64,000 nt of DNA, from positions 5,790 through 69,789 of the forward strand of contig JBKJLH010000191.1 in NCBI GenBank assembly GCA_046597035.1. The letters are read 5' to 3'. A program made the translations under genes and the position numbers. How positions within the stretch are numbered: the stretch's first letter is position 1; every line of letters starts with the position of its first letter. This stretch comes from Lacisediminihabitans sp. (GTDB lineage: Bacteria; Actinomycetota; Actinomycetes; Actinomycetales; Microbacteriaceae). The notes under the pieces were generated by a model. That model was not told where the DNA came from. It ran no database searches and saw nothing but the letters and a program-made list of their open reading frames with translations. Below, one piece after another: positions 12,755 to 56,622 of the stretch.

Positions 12755-12892
12755 CTGATCGATGGGGTCCTCCTGTCAGTGTCGGGGGCAGGTGAGTCTA
12801 AGGGAAGCAGGTTGCGCGGGTGTCGCGGGTCGGTTTGTGCCGTCCGAGTCGTCGACACTCACCCAGACCTCGACTGAGTCGTTTACACTGGA

Positions 12893-12968
12893 AGGCGTCA
12901 CAACTGGCGTTCGGATGGGCATCCATCAGGGAGTGACCACCTCCACGTTTCGGCCGTTCGCCTGGGCC
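12893..12968 (+). promoter_or_regulatory. ZMP/ZTP (pfl) riboswitch
   Basis: GTCACAACTGGCG, GATGG/CCATC hairpin, GGGAGTGAC and 3' GCCGTTCGCCTGGGC match the pfl consensus; upstream of glyA. Confidence 0.85.
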
Positions 12969-13019
12969 GAACCGGATAACCATTTTCCCGATCCGGTCAC
13001 GCCAAGAGGAGTCATCCCG

Positions 13020-29567: not shown

Positions 29568-29640
29568 TGGGCCCCGTCGGGCTCGAACCGACGACCAACG
29601 GATTAAAAGTCCGATGCTCTACCAACTGAGCTAGAGGCCC
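29568..29640 (-). tRNA. tRNA-Lys(TTT)
   Basis: GGGCCTCTAGCTCAGTTGGTAGAGCATCGGACTTTTAATCCGTTGGTCGTCGGTTCGAGCCCGACGGGGCCCA; full cloverleaf, CCA not encoded. Confidence 0.96.
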
Positions 29641-29719: not shown

Positions 29720-30349
29720 ATGACCGACCAGTTCCATAAGCCGACCCAGTTCTCGGGCGCCAAGTTTGAAAGTTTCGTGGGCGGGGAGGACCCCGCGCAG
29801 ATCAGCCGCGTCGCCCATGAGACCGCGGGAGCGTTGCTCAGCCGAGTGCGGCAGAGCCCTGACCAGGGGGTGGTCGACCGGCTCGTCGCATTCACCGACG
29901 AGCATGGAATCGACGCCGTCGCCGAACTGTGGGCGCGCGCCAGTCCGCGCAGCCTGCCGGGCGCGCTCTGGCGCATCTACCTGATGCGAGCGCTCGTGCG
30001 CCAGGATGCCGAGGGCACCGCCCACCTCTTTCAACGCGGCACCGAGATCGCGACCACTATCGACCCGGTGGTGGCCGGCGCGACCGCCCCGACCGGTCCT
30101 GCAGAGATCATCGTTCTCGCCGACCAGATTCTTCGCGGACTGTTTCAGGGGGACTTCGGGGTCGCGCTCGACCGTGCAGCAGCCTTCTGCCGTATCACCG
30201 CACTGGGAGCAACGAGCGTTGCCGATGACGCGGACCTGACCTCGCCGGAGCGCGCGTCCGAACTCACCACTCGCGCCCTCCGCCTCTCGCAGACCGCGAC
30301 GGAGTTCGTCTCCTGCGCCAAACTCTGGCGAGCCGGGTCGCTCGACTAA
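29720..30349 (+). CDS. Conserved actinobacterial hypothetical protein
   Basis: Good codon usage, SLPGALWRIYL motif, TAGGCT -10 just upstream. Confidence 0.75.
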   Translation: MTDQFHKPTQFSGAKFESFVGGEDPAQISRVAHETAGALLSRVRQSPDQGVVDRLVAFTDEHGIDAVAELWARASPRSLPGALWRIYLMRALVRQDAEGTAHLFQRGTEIATTIDPVVAGATAPTGPAEIIVLADQILRGLFQGDFGVALDRAAAFCRITALGATSVADDADLTSPERASELTTRALRLSQTATEFVSCAKLWRAGSLD

Positions 30350-30423
30350 CTCCGCAAGTGCAGCCCCCGCGAATCCGCCGTACGAGGGCATCCCCGCCTC
30401 GCCCCTCCCCGCCACTCCCCTCC

Positions 30424-30547
30424 CCAGGGGTCAACTTCGCATCTTCCCGGCAACCAGAACGATGCGAAGTTGACCCCTGGCCGAAGGCGACGATGCAAAG
30501 TTGACCCTTGACCCCTGGCGATTCGGATTCAGGGGTCGACCTCGTAC
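30424..30547. repeat. BIME/REP-like cluster of about four palindromic arms
   Basis: Perfect 20-bp IR CCAGGGGTCAACTTCGCATC (30424-30443) / GATGCGAAGTTGACCCCTGG (30461-30480); degenerate arms at 30492-30519 and 30530-30547. Confidence 0.8.
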
Positions 30548-30625
30548 GATGCCCGGATCAGCTCCGCGAATGCGAATTGGTGGCGGCCAGAGCGGAAGCA
30601 TCCAGAGTCGGCCGGTACACTTGCC

Positions 30626-30775
30626 AACGGCCCGTAAGGGCCATCGCCGGGCCGCAGTAACCCCGGGCTCCAATATTCGCCGCTTCGAGCGGCCTAGCGC
30701 CGAGAGGCGTTTCTGCGGCCTGGCACCCCTTTCCGGAGGGAAATGGCCTCAACGCGACCGATTCAGGGCTGAATG
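30626..30775 (+). ncRNA. Putative structured non-coding RNA (family unknown)
   Basis: TACACT -10 at 30616-30621; GNRA hairpins, a 12-bp long-range helix and nested hairpins; strand inferred from the promoter and tetraloops. Confidence 0.55.
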
Positions 30776-30784
30776 CGCCGCAGA

Positions 30785-30811
30785 CCAATCCATTTCGCGC
30801 TCGGTGGCGAA
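30785..30811 (+). promoter_or_regulatory. Candidate SigK-type promoter CCAATCC-N16-CGAA
   Basis: Resembles the mycobacterial SigK CCATCC/CCGAA elements; upstream of sigK. Confidence 0.4.
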
Positions 30812-30967
30812 CTCCAGTTGTGACCCGCACAGACGCAACGGCATCGAACGCACAGAGAAGCTGTTACGCCTGCGTAGGTCGCACACAATTGAATATCGAG
30901 GTATTCGAAAAGTCACTCGACTCGAGTAACTTTTCGGTACCGCGTACGCTTACCCGGATTGTTTGCG

Positions 30968-31573
30968 ATGCTTAAGCTCGTGCCCCGTGAAACCGACCGC
31001 AGCCAGGACTATCAGTCCATGGATAAACCTGCGACAAAAGAGACCATGCTCGCGCAGATTGCGGGCGGGGATCAGGCGGCTTTCGGAGCGCTCTACGACG
31101 AAATCTCCCCGAGAGTATTCGGGCTGATCCGTCGTCTGCTGGTGGATCACTCGCAATCAGAAGAAGTGACCCAGGAGGTATTCCTGGAGATCTGGCAGAA
31201 CGCGTCACGGTACGAGCCGAACAAAGGCGGGGCATCCACCTGGATCCTCACCATGGCTCACCGGCGCGCGGTCGACCGCATCCGGTCTTCGCAGTCCGGT
31301 CGTGATCGTGACGTGAAGATCGGTATCCGAGATTACGTGTCCGACTACGACAATGTCGCGGACACGGTAGAAACAACTATTGAACACGAAAGGGTGAAGG
31401 AAGCCATGTCGCAATTGACCGAACTGCAGCGTCAGGCCGTCACCCTGGCGTACTACGGCGGATATAGCCACAGTGAAGTGGCGGCAATGCTCAAGGTGCC
31501 CATCGGCACCGTGAAAACACGACTACGCGACGGCATGATCCGTCTGCGCGACGAATTGGGGGTGGCATCGTGA
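30968..31573 (+). CDS. sigK: ECF sigma factor SigK
   Basis: EEVTQEVFLEIW, AHRRAVDRIRSSQ, VPIGTVKTRLRDG; followed by rskA. Confidence 0.88.
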   Translation: MLKLVPRETDRSQDYQSMDKPATKETMLAQIAGGDQAAFGALYDEISPRVFGLIRRLLVDHSQSEEVTQEVFLEIWQNASRYEPNKGGASTWILTMAHRRAVDRIRSSQSGRDRDVKIGIRDYVSDYDNVADTVETTIEHERVKEAMSQLTELQRQAVTLAYYGGYSHSEVAAMLKVPIGTVKTRLRDGMIRLRDELGVAS

Positions 31574-32439
31574 CCGATCGCGAGGAATTACATCTCCTGA
31601 GTGGCGCGTATGCGCTGAATGCACTCGACGGTGACGAGAAGGGTCGGTTCGAGGCGTACCTGCTGACATCCGAAGAGGCGCGGGCGGAGGTGGCTTCATT
31701 GTCTGACACAGCGGTAATGATCGGACTCTCGACCAACTCGGTCGCGCCTCCCGCCGACCTCAAAGCCCGACTGATGGCCCAAATCGCCGTGACGCCGCAG
31801 CTCGCGCCGCTTCCGGCGGTGCGCCCGCTGTTGACGGCGGTACCCCCGGTTTCGACCGGCACCACGTCTTCGCGGGAAACATCACAGGAGATGAAGTCAC
31901 AGCAGGATGCCGCGGCCACAGCCATCCGCACAGCGAGCCTCGGCACATCCTCACGAGCCATGACGAAGGCTGCCTCTCACTGGTACACCCGTCCGGCGTC
32001 GATCCTGGTAGCCGCGGCCGCTGCCGTCGCGCTGTTCGTCGGAGGCAACGTGCTCGGGCTGTCGGCGGCAAACGAATCTCAGCAGCAAGCCGCGGCCATC
32101 TCATCCATCGTGTCGGCGAGCGACTCCCAGCGGGCGAAGGCGGATGTCGCCGGCGGCGGCAAGGCCACGTTCGTCTGGTCCGTCGGCCTCAGGCAGTCCG
32201 CTGTGGTTATCGATCAGCTTCCGAAGCTCGCCGATAGCAAAACCTACGAACTCTGGTATATCGATAAGGCGTCCAGGGCGACTCCGGCCGGAACATTCAA
32301 CGCTGCGTCTTCCGGTACGACGGTGAAGCTGCTCTCGGGCGCGATGACCGAGGGGGATACCCTCGGCATCACAGTCGAACCGAGCGGGGGTTCTCAGGCG
32401 CCGACCACCGCACCGATCGTGGCAGTCCCGAGCGCCTGA
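31570..32439 (+). CDS. rskA: Anti-sigma-K factor RskA
   Basis: LSGAYALNALD..E...FE N-terminus, one TM, KTYELWYI, GITVEPSGGS..PT. Confidence 0.88.
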   Translation: MTDREELHLLSGAYALNALDGDEKGRFEAYLLTSEEARAEVASLSDTAVMIGLSTNSVAPPADLKARLMAQIAVTPQLAPLPAVRPLLTAVPPVSTGTTSSRETSQEMKSQQDAAATAIRTASLGTSSRAMTKAASHWYTRPASILVAAAAAVALFVGGNVLGLSAANESQQQAAAISSIVSASDSQRAKADVAGGGKATFVWSVGLRQSAVVIDQLPKLADSKTYELWYIDKASRATPAGTFNAASSGTTVKLLSGAMTEGDTLGITVEPSGGSQAPTTAPIVAVPSA

Positions 32440-56382: not shown

Positions 56383-56392
56383 GGTTGTACAG

Positions 56393-56437
56393 CTCCTTCA
56401 CCGGCAGGTACGTGCCGGACGATCCGTAGTGAATGGA
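56393..56437 (-). ncRNA. msiK RNA motif (cis-regulatory leader)
   Basis: TCCATTCACTACGGATCGTCCGGCACGTACCTGCCGGTGAAGGAG directly upstream of msiK, matching the actinobacterial msiK motif as recalled. Confidence 0.75.
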
Positions 56438-56622
56438 TGGTAACGCTCCCTCATTATGTCACCGGAACGGGGCACGCCGGGAGGGTCGTCCGTCTGGATA
56501 CGCTGGACAGCAGGGCATTCTGGCTTTTTCCCAGACAGCATGTTTAGTGTTCATAAGGCTCCGCTCACGGCAAACTGCAGCGGCTGATAGCCACGGCATT
56601 GATGGATAGTGAGTGAGGTTCG

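What the first reader, a model, noticed from the sequence alone, without database searches (positions are those of the whole stretch)
30616..30775. Unannotated highly structured putative ncRNA between a conserved hypothetical gene and sigK
Seen in a 600-bp intergenic gap: a TACACT -10, then GGCCC-GTAA-GGGCC (30629-30642). A 12-bp helix GCCGGGCCGCAG/CTGCGGCCTGGC (30646-30657/30713-30724, one G-U) encloses an unpaired A/U-rich segment and the hairpins GCCGCT-TCG-AGCGGC and GCGCC-GAGA-GGCGT. It is followed by TTTCC-GGAG-GGAAA and ATTCA-GGGC-TGAAT. GNRA loops and G-U pairs favour the plus strand. Inference: a stand-alone sRNA or a long sigK leader. An Ms1-like RNA-polymerase-binding RNA is one hypothesis, and I cannot assign a family.
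Basis: partly seen in the sequence, partly recalled or inferred. Interest (0 to 1): 0.75.

Follow-up and report, generated by a model that had tools for sequence, protein, structure and literature searches.

The report
Conserved actinomycete small RNA gene
The flagged stretch is a real, free-standing gene for a folded small RNA of about 105 bases. It belongs to a family found in about 60% of sampled Actinomycetes genomes, is missing from Rfam, has no known function, and is neither a sigK leader nor an Ms1/6S-type RNA.

Summary
The TACACT -10, the 5' hairpin, the 12-bp closing helix and the two inner hairpins are all at the stated coordinates.

**Structure and spread**
- All 11 pairs of the closing helix show compensatory changes across relatives.
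- The RNA is a three-way junction with an invariant 12-nt single strand, CCCCGGGCUCCA.
- It matched in 54 of 61 relatives and in 93 of 151 Actinomycetes genomes. It matched in none of about 139 genomes from other classes of the phylum.
- It is single-copy in this genome and has no Rfam match.

**What it is not**
- It is not a sigK leader. sigK lies downstream only in some Microbacteriaceae, and in 18 loci the RNA faces the 3' end of a convergent gene.
- It is not Ms1 or 6S. Size, shape and gene neighbourhood are all wrong.

**Closest relative and extent**
- In Streptomyces-like genomes the homologue lies between a malic-enzyme gene and a HelD-like helicase gene. That is the locus of the uncharacterised 84-nt sRNA scr2952.
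- Many relatives carry a SigH/SigR-type promoter. This window has only a degenerate copy of it.
- The two 3' hairpins at 30733-30775 are not conserved. The RNA most likely spans about 30628-30734.

**Function and prior reports**
- Function is inferred only. I favour a trans-acting regulator that uses the C-rich strand.
- This scan reported the same family twice before, on other genomes.

The parts
30593..30597 (+). GGAAG, a remnant of the -35 of a SigH/SigR-type promoter. It is followed 17 nt later by GTA rather than GTT.
   Evidence: Read. Relatives carry an intact GGAAT-N17-19-GTT at the matching place. In this window the -10 trimer is mismatched, so ECF sigma-factor dependence here is doubtful.
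30616..30621 (+). -10 hexamer TACACT (TAnnnT type) of the sRNA gene's own promoter.
   Evidence: A TAnnnT hexamer sits at a fixed distance from the core in 109 of 122 non-redundant loci. The consensus scan, which needs both hexamers, found nothing.
30629..30642 (+). 5' hairpin GGCCC-GUAA-GGGCC, an optional lineage-specific module. The transcription start is inferred at about 30627-30629.
   Evidence: It is present in 30 loci. Stem variants are GGCUC/GGGCC (a U-G pair, valid on + only), GGCUC/GAGCC and GGUUC/GAGCC, mostly with GNRA loops. A similar GGCCC-UUCG-GGGCC module occurs in other lineages.
30646..30657 (+). P1, 5' strand of the closing helix.
   Evidence: Pairs with 30713-30724. All 11 modelled pairs show changes on both sides.
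30659..30660 (+). P1b, two further pairs (30659-30712 and 30660-30711) beyond the bulged U30658. They close the three-way junction.
   Evidence: Alignment columns 29/106 give AU 38, GC 8, UA 5, GU 2. Columns 30/105 give GC 33, AU 16. Both are out of 58 sequences.
30661..30678 (+). J1/2 single strand. The invariant part CCCCGGGCUCCA is 30661-30672 and the variable A/U-rich part is 30673-30678. This is the proposed interaction surface.
   Evidence: These columns are invariant or nearly so in 122 sequences, though 30661-30672 was fixed by the search pattern that collected most of them. In loci found by BLAST or by the model it differs by at most two bases. In a single-sequence partition function it competes with an alternative pairing to P3: mean unpaired probability is 0.37, against 0.93 for the variable part.
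30679..30693 (+). P2 hairpin GCCGC-UUCGA-GCGGC.
   Evidence: It was fixed by the search pattern within the order. It covaries in model-found distant members, as GUCGC/GCGAC and GUCCC/GGGAC.
30697..30710 (+). P3 hairpin with a GAGA loop. The core is CGCC/GGCG, with an outer G-U pair.
   Evidence: The stem is invariant in 122 sequences although it was not part of the search pattern. The loop varies among GAGA, GACA, GACU, GUGA and GUCA.
30711..30724 (+). 3' strands of P1b (30711-30712) and P1 (30713-30724).
30725..30734 (+). Tail ACCCCUUUCC. The 3' end and termination point are inferred to lie here.
   Evidence: Across 119 loci, T frequency is 0.31-0.50 at positions +2 to +8 after P1, against a background of 0.16. 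It returns to background by +10. No reads were available.
30735..30775 (+). They are species-level features and not part of the conserved RNA. They may be a back-up terminator or spacer structure.
   Evidence: Sequence and fold differ even among same-genus genomes.
29720..30349 (+). Syntenic neighbour: a 209-aa conserved, acidic, all-alpha protein of unknown function, called 'up209' in this report.
   Evidence: A homologue is adjacent to the RNA in 120 of 169 loci: 102 co-directional upstream and 18 convergent downstream. It has no Pfam family. The model has pLDDT 90 and no PDB fold match. Median pI is about 5.

Best explanation
Window positions about 30628-30734 (+) hold a free-standing gene for a structured small RNA of about 105 nt. 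It belongs to a family spread across the class Actinomycetes.

**Shown**
- The RNA has its own TAnnnT -10.
- Its 5' and 3' ends pair in a long, freely covarying helix (P1 plus P1b), followed by a U-rich tail.
- The helix closes a three-way junction. The junction presents an invariant 12-nt C-rich single strand (CCCCGGGCUCCA) and two hairpins conserved in sequence.
- The gene is single-copy here.
- It is linked to the 3' end of a conserved 209-aa gene, not to sigK.

**Inferred**
- It acts in trans as a regulatory RNA, with the invariant C-rich strand as its contact surface.
- The most likely mode is pairing with G-rich, Shine-Dalgarno-like sites in mRNAs, as the C-rich actinobacterial 6C RNA does.
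- P1 and the hairpins would give stability and termination.
- Ancestrally the gene was driven by a SigH/SigR/SigE-type stress promoter (GGAAT-N17-19-GTT), which is intact in many lineages. In this genus that promoter has decayed to GGAAG-N17-GTA, and the housekeeping-type TACACT -10 probably drives expression.

My confidence that this is a real stand-alone member of the family is about 0.9. My confidence in base pairing as the mode of action is about 0.35-0.4. The figure in the confidence field covers the statement as a whole.
For: - **Structure and covariation:**, and for P2.
- **Strand:** G-U pairs and the promoter orientation. The model scores 92.2 bits on + and gives no match on the opposite strand in the window.
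- **Distribution:** 54 of 61 relatives, 93 of 151 genomes in the class, 0 of about 139 genomes in other classes, and named taxa from Bifidobacterium to Modestobacter.
- **Promoter:** TAnnnT in 109 of 122 loci. A SigH/SigR-type motif in 16 of 28 class-level loci, including all 7 Streptomyces-like and f26 loci. The consensus GGAAT-N17-19-GTT comes from PMC10012870.
- **U-rich tail after P1:**
- **Not cis-acting:** the downstream genes vary, and 18 loci are convergent.
- **Expression of the probable Streptomyces homologue:** scr2952 (84 nt), sar5126 (91 nt) and svr2719 were detected by RNA-seq (PMC3765725 supplement). PMC8388888 reports that expression of scr2952 was confirmed.
- **C-rich single strand:** it contains CCCC and CUCC, the complements of GGGG and GGAG (read directly from the sequence).
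Against:
- A duplex scan of the J1/2 strand against crude start regions of this genome scored no better than the reversed-seed control.
- The exact 12-mer complement occurs once more in the genome, in the middle of a gene.
- The best RBS-like 10-mer site lies inside a longer ORF.
- P2 and P3 are invariant in sequence across the class. That is more typical of protein-, ligand- or tertiary-contact RNAs than of base-pairing sRNAs.
- In a single-sequence fold the C-rich strand can pair with P3: -57.8 kcal/mol, against -53.7 for the consensus fold.
- The ECF-type promoter is not intact in this window.
Confidence: 0.45

Rival explanations
1. The RNA works by binding a conserved protein, another macromolecule or a small ligand rather than by pairing with mRNAs. 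Under this reading it would be a sponge, a ribonucleoprotein component or an aptamer-like RNA. The invariant junction strand and the P2/P3 hairpins would form the binding site. The RNA polymerase-binding (Ms1/6S-like) version proposed by the first reader is a special case.
For: - P2, P3 and J1/2 are conserved in sequence from Bifidobacterium-type to Streptomyces-type members, while P1 varies freely.
- The RNA is tightly syntenic with one conserved protein gene in both orientations.
- In Streptomyces-like genomes it lies beside a HelD-like gene. HelD is an RNA polymerase recycling factor (SCO2952 in PMC8655204).
- No target signal came out of the duplex scan.
Against: - The syntenic protein is acidic, with median pI about 5.0 and net charge about -9. 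It was not detected in the Streptomyces-like, f26 and f104 genomes tested that carry the RNA.
- HelD adjacency is confined to Streptomyces-like loci.
- For RNA polymerase specifically: the RNA is far shorter than any 6S or Ms1 RNA and has no rod-with-bubble shape. RIP-seq in S. coelicolor reported only scr3559 and scr0792 as polymerase-associated (PMC11077062).
- No ligand or partner can be named from sequence.
Confidence: 0.3
2. The RNA is a cis-acting 5' leader of sigK-rskA: an attenuator, riboswitch or thermosensor in which forming P1 plus the U-tail terminates transcription before sigK.
For: In this genome and 53 other Microbacteriaceae loci, sigK follows on the same strand about 230 nt downstream. 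P1 plus a U-rich tail looks like a terminator. The alternative J1/2:P3 fold lies within about 4 kcal/mol of the consensus fold.
Against: - sigK is downstream in only 54 of 165 loci. Other lineages have DUF47-Pit, an aminotransferase, ABC-transporter genes, or a convergent gene end.
- A conserved ECF-like -35/-10 pair (ACCAATCC ... CGAACT, 30784-30813) lies between the RNA and sigK within the genus.
- The 110 nt between the RNA and that motif are not conserved.
Confidence: 0.06
3. The RNA is a 3' UTR or terminator structure of the upstream 209-aa gene, or an sRNA processed from that mRNA. It would have no promoter of its own.
For: The RNA lies downstream of that gene on the same strand in 102 of 169 loci, often only 20-100 nt after the stop codon.
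Against: - A conserved -10, and often a full SigH/SigR-type promoter, lies between the stop codon and P1.
- In 18 loci the RNA is on the opposite strand, convergent with the gene.
- In this window 270 nt of spacer, holding a dispersed repeat, separate the two.
- The RNA occurs in the Streptomyces-like, f26 and f104 genomes tested, in which the protein was not detected.
Confidence: 0.05
4. There is no functional RNA. The conservation reflects a DNA-level element such as a protein-binding site or a repeat.
For: Several blocks are invariant at the sequence level, which covariation cannot test.
Against: - Compensatory changes in 11 of 11 P1 pairs, plus P1b and P2.
- G-U pairs that work on one strand only.
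- The element is single-copy in this genome.
- The probable Streptomyces homologue is an expressed sRNA.
Confidence: 0.02

Closest known systems
scr2952 of Streptomyces coelicolor (with sar5126 of S. avermitilis and svr2719 of S. venezuelae), an uncharacterised sRNA from Vockenhuber et al. 2011 and Moody et al. 2013
   Same: - The model built from this family gives one hit in each of the 9 Streptomyces-like genomes searched (7-9 Mb).
- In the one locus where I annotated the flanks, the hit lies between a malic-enzyme gene and a UvrD/HelD-like helicase gene.
- scr2952 is mapped between sco2951 and sco2952. SCO2951 is a malic enzyme (PMC7494193). SCO2952 and SVEN_2719 are HelD proteins (PMC8655204).
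- Sizes agree: 84-91 nt against a core of about 86-94 nt.
   Different: - I could not compare with the published sequence, because no named S. coelicolor record was reachable.
- The strands given in the Moody table (+, -, -) cannot all agree with the strand my model and the SigR-type promoter indicate.
- The Streptomyces version differs in J1/2 (CCCCCGGGCCCA), in P2 (GUCGC/GCGAC) and in its neighbours.
- PMC8388888 says scr2952 is in Rfam, but Rfam 15 gives no hit at these loci.
6C RNA (Rfam RF01066), the conserved C-rich sRNA of Actinobacteria
   Same: Both are small, highly conserved across the group, have their own promoter, and expose C-rich unpaired segments that could pair with G-rich mRNA sites. 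This is the basis of the proposed way of working. It is an analogy, not homology.
   Different: - No 6C model match in the window or anywhere in this genome.
- 6C carries its C-runs in two hairpin loops. Here the C-rich strand sits in the junction of a three-way fold closed by the RNA's own ends.
- 6C in C. glutamicum is driven by a SigA/SigB-dependent promoter (PMC5014011 abstract). Many members of this family carry a SigH/SigR-type promoter.
Ms1 RNA / 6S RNA (RNA polymerase-binding RNAs; scr3559 in Streptomyces)
   Same: All are abundant-type actinobacterial non-coding RNAs lying in an intergenic region with their own promoter. The resemblance ends there.
   Different: - Ms1 and scr3559 are about 230-300 nt and 6S-like in structure (PMC9130861). 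The shortest known 6S RNA is about 160 nt (PMC11077062).
- Ms1 flanking genes are absent.
- No RF00013 hit.
- This family also occurs where Ms1 was not found.

Membership tests
Ms1 RNA | Length of about 230-300 nt with a 6S-like secondary structure | tested here: not met
   The conserved RNA is about 86-94 nt, or about 105 nt here with the 5' hairpin. It folds as a three-way junction.
Ms1 RNA | Conserved gene neighbourhood: HAD-IB hydrolase / phosphoserine phosphatase / CpaE on one side, and oxidoreductase / PH domain / regulator / glycosidase on the other (PMC9130861, Tables 1-3) | tested here: not met
   Here the flanks are a 209-aa protein of unknown family and sigK-rskA. In Cellulomonas chitinilytica the order is that same protein, the RNA, DUF47, then Pit.
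Ms1 RNA | Binds the RNA polymerase core | not testable with these tools
   Indirect evidence only: RIP-seq in S. coelicolor named scr3559 and scr0792, not scr2952 (PMC11077062).
6S RNA (RF00013) | Match to the Rfam covariance model; a long helix with a central bubble | tested here: not met
   No match at the gathering threshold or at E <= 10 over 30300-31050.
scr2952 family (Streptomyces sRNA) | In Streptomyces, lies in the intergenic region between the malic-enzyme gene (SCO2951) and helD (SCO2952 / SVEN_2719) | tested here: met
   The model hit in a 9.2-Mb Streptomyces-like genome lies between a malic-enzyme ORF and a UvrD-like helicase ORF.
scr2952 family (Streptomyces sRNA) | Size of about 84-91 nt | tested here: met
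   Model hits span 90-97 nt including 5-6 nt of flank on each side. The published lengths are 84, 91 and 148 nt.
scr2952 family (Streptomyces sRNA) | Sequence identity with, and same strand as, the published scr2952 (3208719-3208802, +) | tested here: inconclusive
   The published sequence is not held. The table's strands (+ for scr2952, - for sar5126, - for svr2719) cannot all fit one orientation. My strand call rests on G-U pairs and the GGAAT-N18-GTT promoter.
6C RNA (RF01066) | Match to the Rfam model; two hairpins with C-rich loops | tested here: not met
   No match in the window or in the whole genome. The C-rich segment is a junction strand, not a hairpin loop.
SigH/SigR/SigE-dependent promoter | GGAA(T/C)-N17-19-GTT upstream of the transcription start (PMC10012870) | tested here: not met
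   The window has GGAAG-N17-GTA. The motif is intact in 16 of 28 class-level loci and in 26 of the 122 pattern-collected loci. It is a property of the family, not of this copy.
Intrinsic terminator | G+C-rich stem followed directly by a run of U | tested here: inconclusive
   The simple scan finds none, because it needs a loop of 3-8 nt. P1 is a long-range stem. T is enriched two- to three-fold at +2 to +8 after it across 119 loci. Here the tail has only UUU.

The most novel reading that the evidence does not exclude
This is a new functional RNA class of Actinomycetes, comparable in spread to 6C or Ms1. Under this reading it is a structured RNA driven by a stress sigma factor (SigH/SigR). Its invariant junction strand and two invariant hairpins would bind a conserved cellular partner, either a protein or a small molecule, rather than mRNAs. 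It might also toggle between the three-way-junction fold and the alternative J1/2:P3 fold.
Probability: 0.3. Interest if true: 0.8.

Novelty: new member of a known kind. Interest (0 to 1): 0.6.

Why it matters
Few non-coding RNAs are conserved across Actinomycetes. The main ones are tmRNA, RNase P RNA, SRP RNA, 6C and Ms1.

This family matched in about 60% of sampled genomes of the class, including Bifidobacterium, Actinomyces, Cutibacterium relatives, Microbacteriaceae and Streptomyces-like genomes. It has a well-supported fold and, in many lineages, a thiol- and heat-stress-type promoter. Despite this it has no Rfam family, no described consensus and no function.

A curated model would annotate one extra gene in thousands of genomes. 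It would also give the uncharacterised Streptomyces sRNA scr2952 a phylogenetic context and a testable structure. If the SigH/SigR link holds, the family would be a non-coding member of a deeply conserved stress regulon.

For this particular window, the result also removes a false lead: the sigK region has no long structured leader.

Tried and rejected
1. **Rfam.** The gathering-threshold scan of the whole window and the E <= 10 scan of 30300-31050 gave only chance miRNA-type hits on a neighbouring repeat hairpin. Nothing appeared at the homologous Streptomyces-like and f26 loci either.
2. **Ms1.** I read PMC9130861 and its supplement. The supplement gives coordinates only and no sequence motif to match. 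I rejected Ms1 on size, fold, gene neighbourhood and taxon range.
3. **sigK leader.** Rejected on gene neighbourhood.
4. **A ribonucleoprotein with the upstream 209-aa protein.**
   - The fold is confident but matches nothing in the PDB: best Foldseek E = 0.54.
   - The profile search against PDB sequences gave nothing significant: best E = 0.062.
   - It has no Pfam family.
   - The protein is acidic.
   - It was not detected in the Streptomyces-like, f26 and f104 genomes tested that carry the RNA.
   - I therefore kept it only as a syntenic neighbour.
5. **Target search in this genome.**
   - The 12-mer complement occurs at control frequency.
   - Its one other exact copy lies in the middle of a gene.
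   - The duplexfold scan of start regions gave the same distribution as a reversed-seed control. My gene calling there was crude, with only 889 ORFs.
   - The best RBS-like site is internal to a 435-aa ORF.
6. **HelD adjacency as a general link to RNA polymerase.** It holds only in Streptomyces-like loci. The helD-like gene of this genome is on another contig.
8. **Vockenhuber et al. 2011 (PMC3218513).** The paper is not held.
Full report
**Setting**

The window is contig C57 of a 3.37-Mb, 209-contig actinobacterial assembly. The flanking protein's best matches are Microbacteriaceae. One same-genus locus has blast statistics identical to those of Frigoribacterium sp. CG_9.8 (L010 and L057). 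The genus is therefore probably Frigoribacterium; this is an inference.

The finding lies in the 609-nt gap between two genes:
- An ORF at 29720-30349 (+), 209 aa, with no Pfam family.
- sigK at 30959-31573 (+), which scores 275 bits against NCBIfam SigK. rskA follows at 31570-32439.

The single-sequence fold is only mildly better than shuffles: z = -2.56 on + and -2.06 on -. On that basis alone the case would be weak.

Comparison settles it.
- BLAST of 30560-30960 found a match in 54 of 61 related genomes. An 80-nt core (30645-30724) is 78-95% identical across about 20 families of the order, while the flanks diverge.
The named taxa include Cellulomonas, Brevibacterium, Bifidobacterium, Actinomyces, Mobiluncus, Rothia, Kocuria, many Microbacteriaceae, Propionibacteriales and Modestobacter.

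**Structure**

I aligned 122 non-redundant copies (A1) and built a covariance model, R1. I then re-aligned 58 diverse hits plus one weak opposite-strand match (A3).

- **P1 (30646-30657 / 30713-30724).** It has compensatory changes at 11 of 11 pairs. 96.9% of cells are paired, against 32-55% when partners are slid by 1-3 columns. None of 500 shuffles reached the observed values. A caveat is that A3 was fitted to the model. However, the unfitted MAFFT alignment already showed both-sided changes at all 10 P1 pairs.
- **P1b.** A scan of all column pairs revealed two further pairs beyond a bulged U (30659-30712 and 30660-30711), with A-U to G-C exchange in 50-53 of 58 sequences. No unpaired bases are left between P3 and P1.
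- **P2 (30679-30693).** It was fixed by my search pattern within the order. It covaries in model-found distant members, as GUCGC/GCGAC and GUCCC/GGGAC.
- **P3 (30697-30710).** Its stem is invariant although it was not part of the pattern. Its tetraloop varies among GAGA, GACA, GACU, GUGA and GUCA.
- **J1/2.** The strand between P1b and P2 begins with CCCCGGGCUCCA (30661-30672), followed by six variable A/U-rich bases. The pattern scan fixed these 12 bases in the loci it collected. In loci found by BLAST or by the model they differ by at most two bases.
- **5' hairpin (30629-30642).** It is an optional module, present in 30 loci with U-G and U-A stem variants. A similar module occurs in other lineages.

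The G-U pairs and the model score identify the + strand. The model scores 92.2 bits on + and gives no match on the opposite strand in the window.

**Ends of the RNA**

- A TAnnnT hexamer sits about 7-12 nt before the first paired base in 109 of 122 loci. Here it is TACACT at 30616-30621, which puts the start at about 30627-30629.
- After P1, T frequency rises to 0.31-0.50 at +2 to +8, against a background of 0.16. It is back at background by +10. The RNA therefore probably ends there, in this window within ACCCCUUUCC at 30725-30734.
- These ends are inferred.

**Distribution**

- R1 finds a single copy in this genome.
- It finds matches in 93 of 151 evenly drawn genomes of the class, covering 65 of 97 genera. 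A few genomes have 2-3 copies.
- In the phylum-wide draw, none of about 139 genomes from other classes matched. That search used stricter filters, so weak matches could be missed.
- Rfam 15 has no match at the gathering threshold or at E <= 10, either here or at distant homologous loci.

**Gene neighbourhood**

- A homologue of the 209-aa upstream protein lies next to the RNA in 120 of 169 loci. In 102 it is directly upstream on the same strand. In 18, mostly Microbacterium, it is downstream and convergent. In both arrangements the RNA stays at that gene's 3' end.
- sigK-rskA is downstream in only 54 loci, all Microbacteriaceae. About 24 of 122 loci have DUF47 plus a Pit phosphate transporter, including Cellulomonas. 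Others have unrelated genes.
- The convergent cases and the varying downstream genes rule out a dedicated 5' leader.
- Within the genus, a conserved ACCAATCC-N16-CGAACT motif (30784-30813) lies between the RNA and sigK. It looks like sigK's own ECF promoter. This rests on inference and on my recollection of the mycobacterial SigK promoter.

**Promoter type**

- Many relatives carry GGAAT-N17-19-GTT, with the GTT abutting the TAnnnT. It is present in 26 of the 122 pattern-collected loci and in 16 of 28 loci from the unbiased class search, including all seven Streptomyces-like and f26 loci.
- This is the SigH/SigR consensus; with GGAAC it is also read by SigE (PMC10012870).
- In this window the motif has decayed to GGAAG-N17-GTA, so here a housekeeping-type -10 is the likelier driver.

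**Comparison with known RNAs**

*Ms1 and 6S.*
- Ms1 and its Streptomyces homologue scr3559 are about 230-300 nt and 6S-like. They are flanked by HAD-IB hydrolase or CpaE on one side and oxidoreductase or PH-domain genes on the other (PMC9130861).
- None of this applies here.
- The family is present in Bifidobacterium, Actinomyces and Brevibacterium, where that study found no room for Ms1.
- RIP-seq in S. coelicolor reported only scr3559 and scr0792 on RNA polymerase (PMC11077062).

*scr2952.*
- An earlier report of this scan named scr2952 as the probable relative. I tested that lead.
- In a 9.2-Mb Streptomyces-like genome, the single R1 hit lies between a malic-enzyme ORF and a UvrD-like helicase ORF.
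- scr2952 (84 nt) is mapped between sco2951 and sco2952 (PMC3765725 supplement).
- SCO2951 is a malic enzyme (PMC7494193). SCO2952 and SVEN_2719 are HelD proteins (PMC8655204).
- Locus and size therefore match. Sequence and strand could not be checked, and the published strands are not mutually consistent.

**How it probably works**

This section is inference.
- The fold presents a long accessible strand containing CCCC and CUCC, held on a stable scaffold. This resembles the C-rich actinobacterial 6C RNA and favours pairing with G-rich, ribosome-binding-site-like mRNA sites.
- I could find no target signal in this genome, but the test was crude.
- The invariance of P2 and P3 in sequence also fits a protein or ligand partner. 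I give that rival 0.3.
- The syntenic protein is a poor candidate for that partner. It is acidic, with pI about 5, and it was not detected in the Streptomyces-like, f26 and f104 genomes tested that carry the RNA.
- A competing fold, in which the C-rich strand pairs with the P3 sequence, lies within about 4 kcal/mol of the consensus fold. It cannot be tested by covariation because both partners are invariant.

**Verdict**

This is a real gene and a member of a widespread, uncurated and functionally unknown sRNA family. Its extent should be trimmed to about 30628-30734. The sigK-leader and Ms1 ideas fail.

The same family was reported twice before by this scan, on other genomes. I confirmed those reports' main claims independently: class-wide spread, no Rfam family, a stress-type promoter and the scr2952 locus. 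I added the P1b pairs, the link to the 209-aa gene in both orientations, and the HelD/malic-enzyme identification of the Streptomyces flanks.

Noticed in passing
window 30379-30548: The spacer between the 209-aa gene and the sRNA promoter holds a nested inverted-repeat element. Its 27-nt arms are at 30424-30450 and 30454-30480, a third partial copy is at 30489-30510, and outer arms are at 30379-30395 and 30532-30548. Its 20-mer GATGCGAAGTTGACCCCTGG occurs 15 times in this genome at up to 3 mismatches, against 0 for the control. It therefore looks like a dispersed REP/MITE-like repeat. It also explains the chance miRNA-type Rfam hits.
   Followed up: partly
window 30784-30813: ACCAATCC-N16-CGAACT is conserved within the genus upstream of sigK. 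It is probably the autoregulated ECF promoter of sigK-rskA.
   Followed up: partly
window 29720-30349: A 209-aa protein family with 2670 homologues at E <= 0.001. It has no Pfam family, a confident all-alpha model (pLDDT 90) with no PDB fold match, and is acidic. Several NCBI records name it 'DNA-directed RNA polymerase subunit beta', which nothing here supports. It keeps its 3' end next to the sRNA gene in either orientation.
   Followed up: partly
L176:1501-3084 (Streptomyces-like genome G113): In Streptomyces-like genomes the sRNA lies directly downstream of a HelD-like gene and upstream of a malic-enzyme gene, with a GGAAT-N18-GTT motif in front of the RNA. HelD is an RNA polymerase recycling factor. 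The C. glutamicum HelD gene (cg1555, uvrD3) is itself SigH-dependent according to PMC10012870.
   Followed up: partly
genomes G222, G232, G237, G259, G271, G288, G338: Some genomes, mostly in family f85, carry two or three copies of the sRNA, whereas most have one.
   Followed up: no
window 30659-30711: A single-sequence fold prefers pairing the invariant C-rich strand with the P3 sequence: -57.8 kcal/mol, against -53.7 for the consensus fold. This could be a conformational switch. It cannot be tested by covariation.
   Followed up: partly
window 12890-12974 (+), 56387-56445 (-), 29568-29640 (-): Rfam matches at the gathering threshold elsewhere in the window: a ZMP/ZTP riboswitch, an msiK RNA and a tRNA.
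   Followed up: no
whole genome G000: No match to 6C RNA (RF01066) anywhere in this 97%-complete assembly. 6C is described as highly conserved in Actinobacteria.
   Followed up: no
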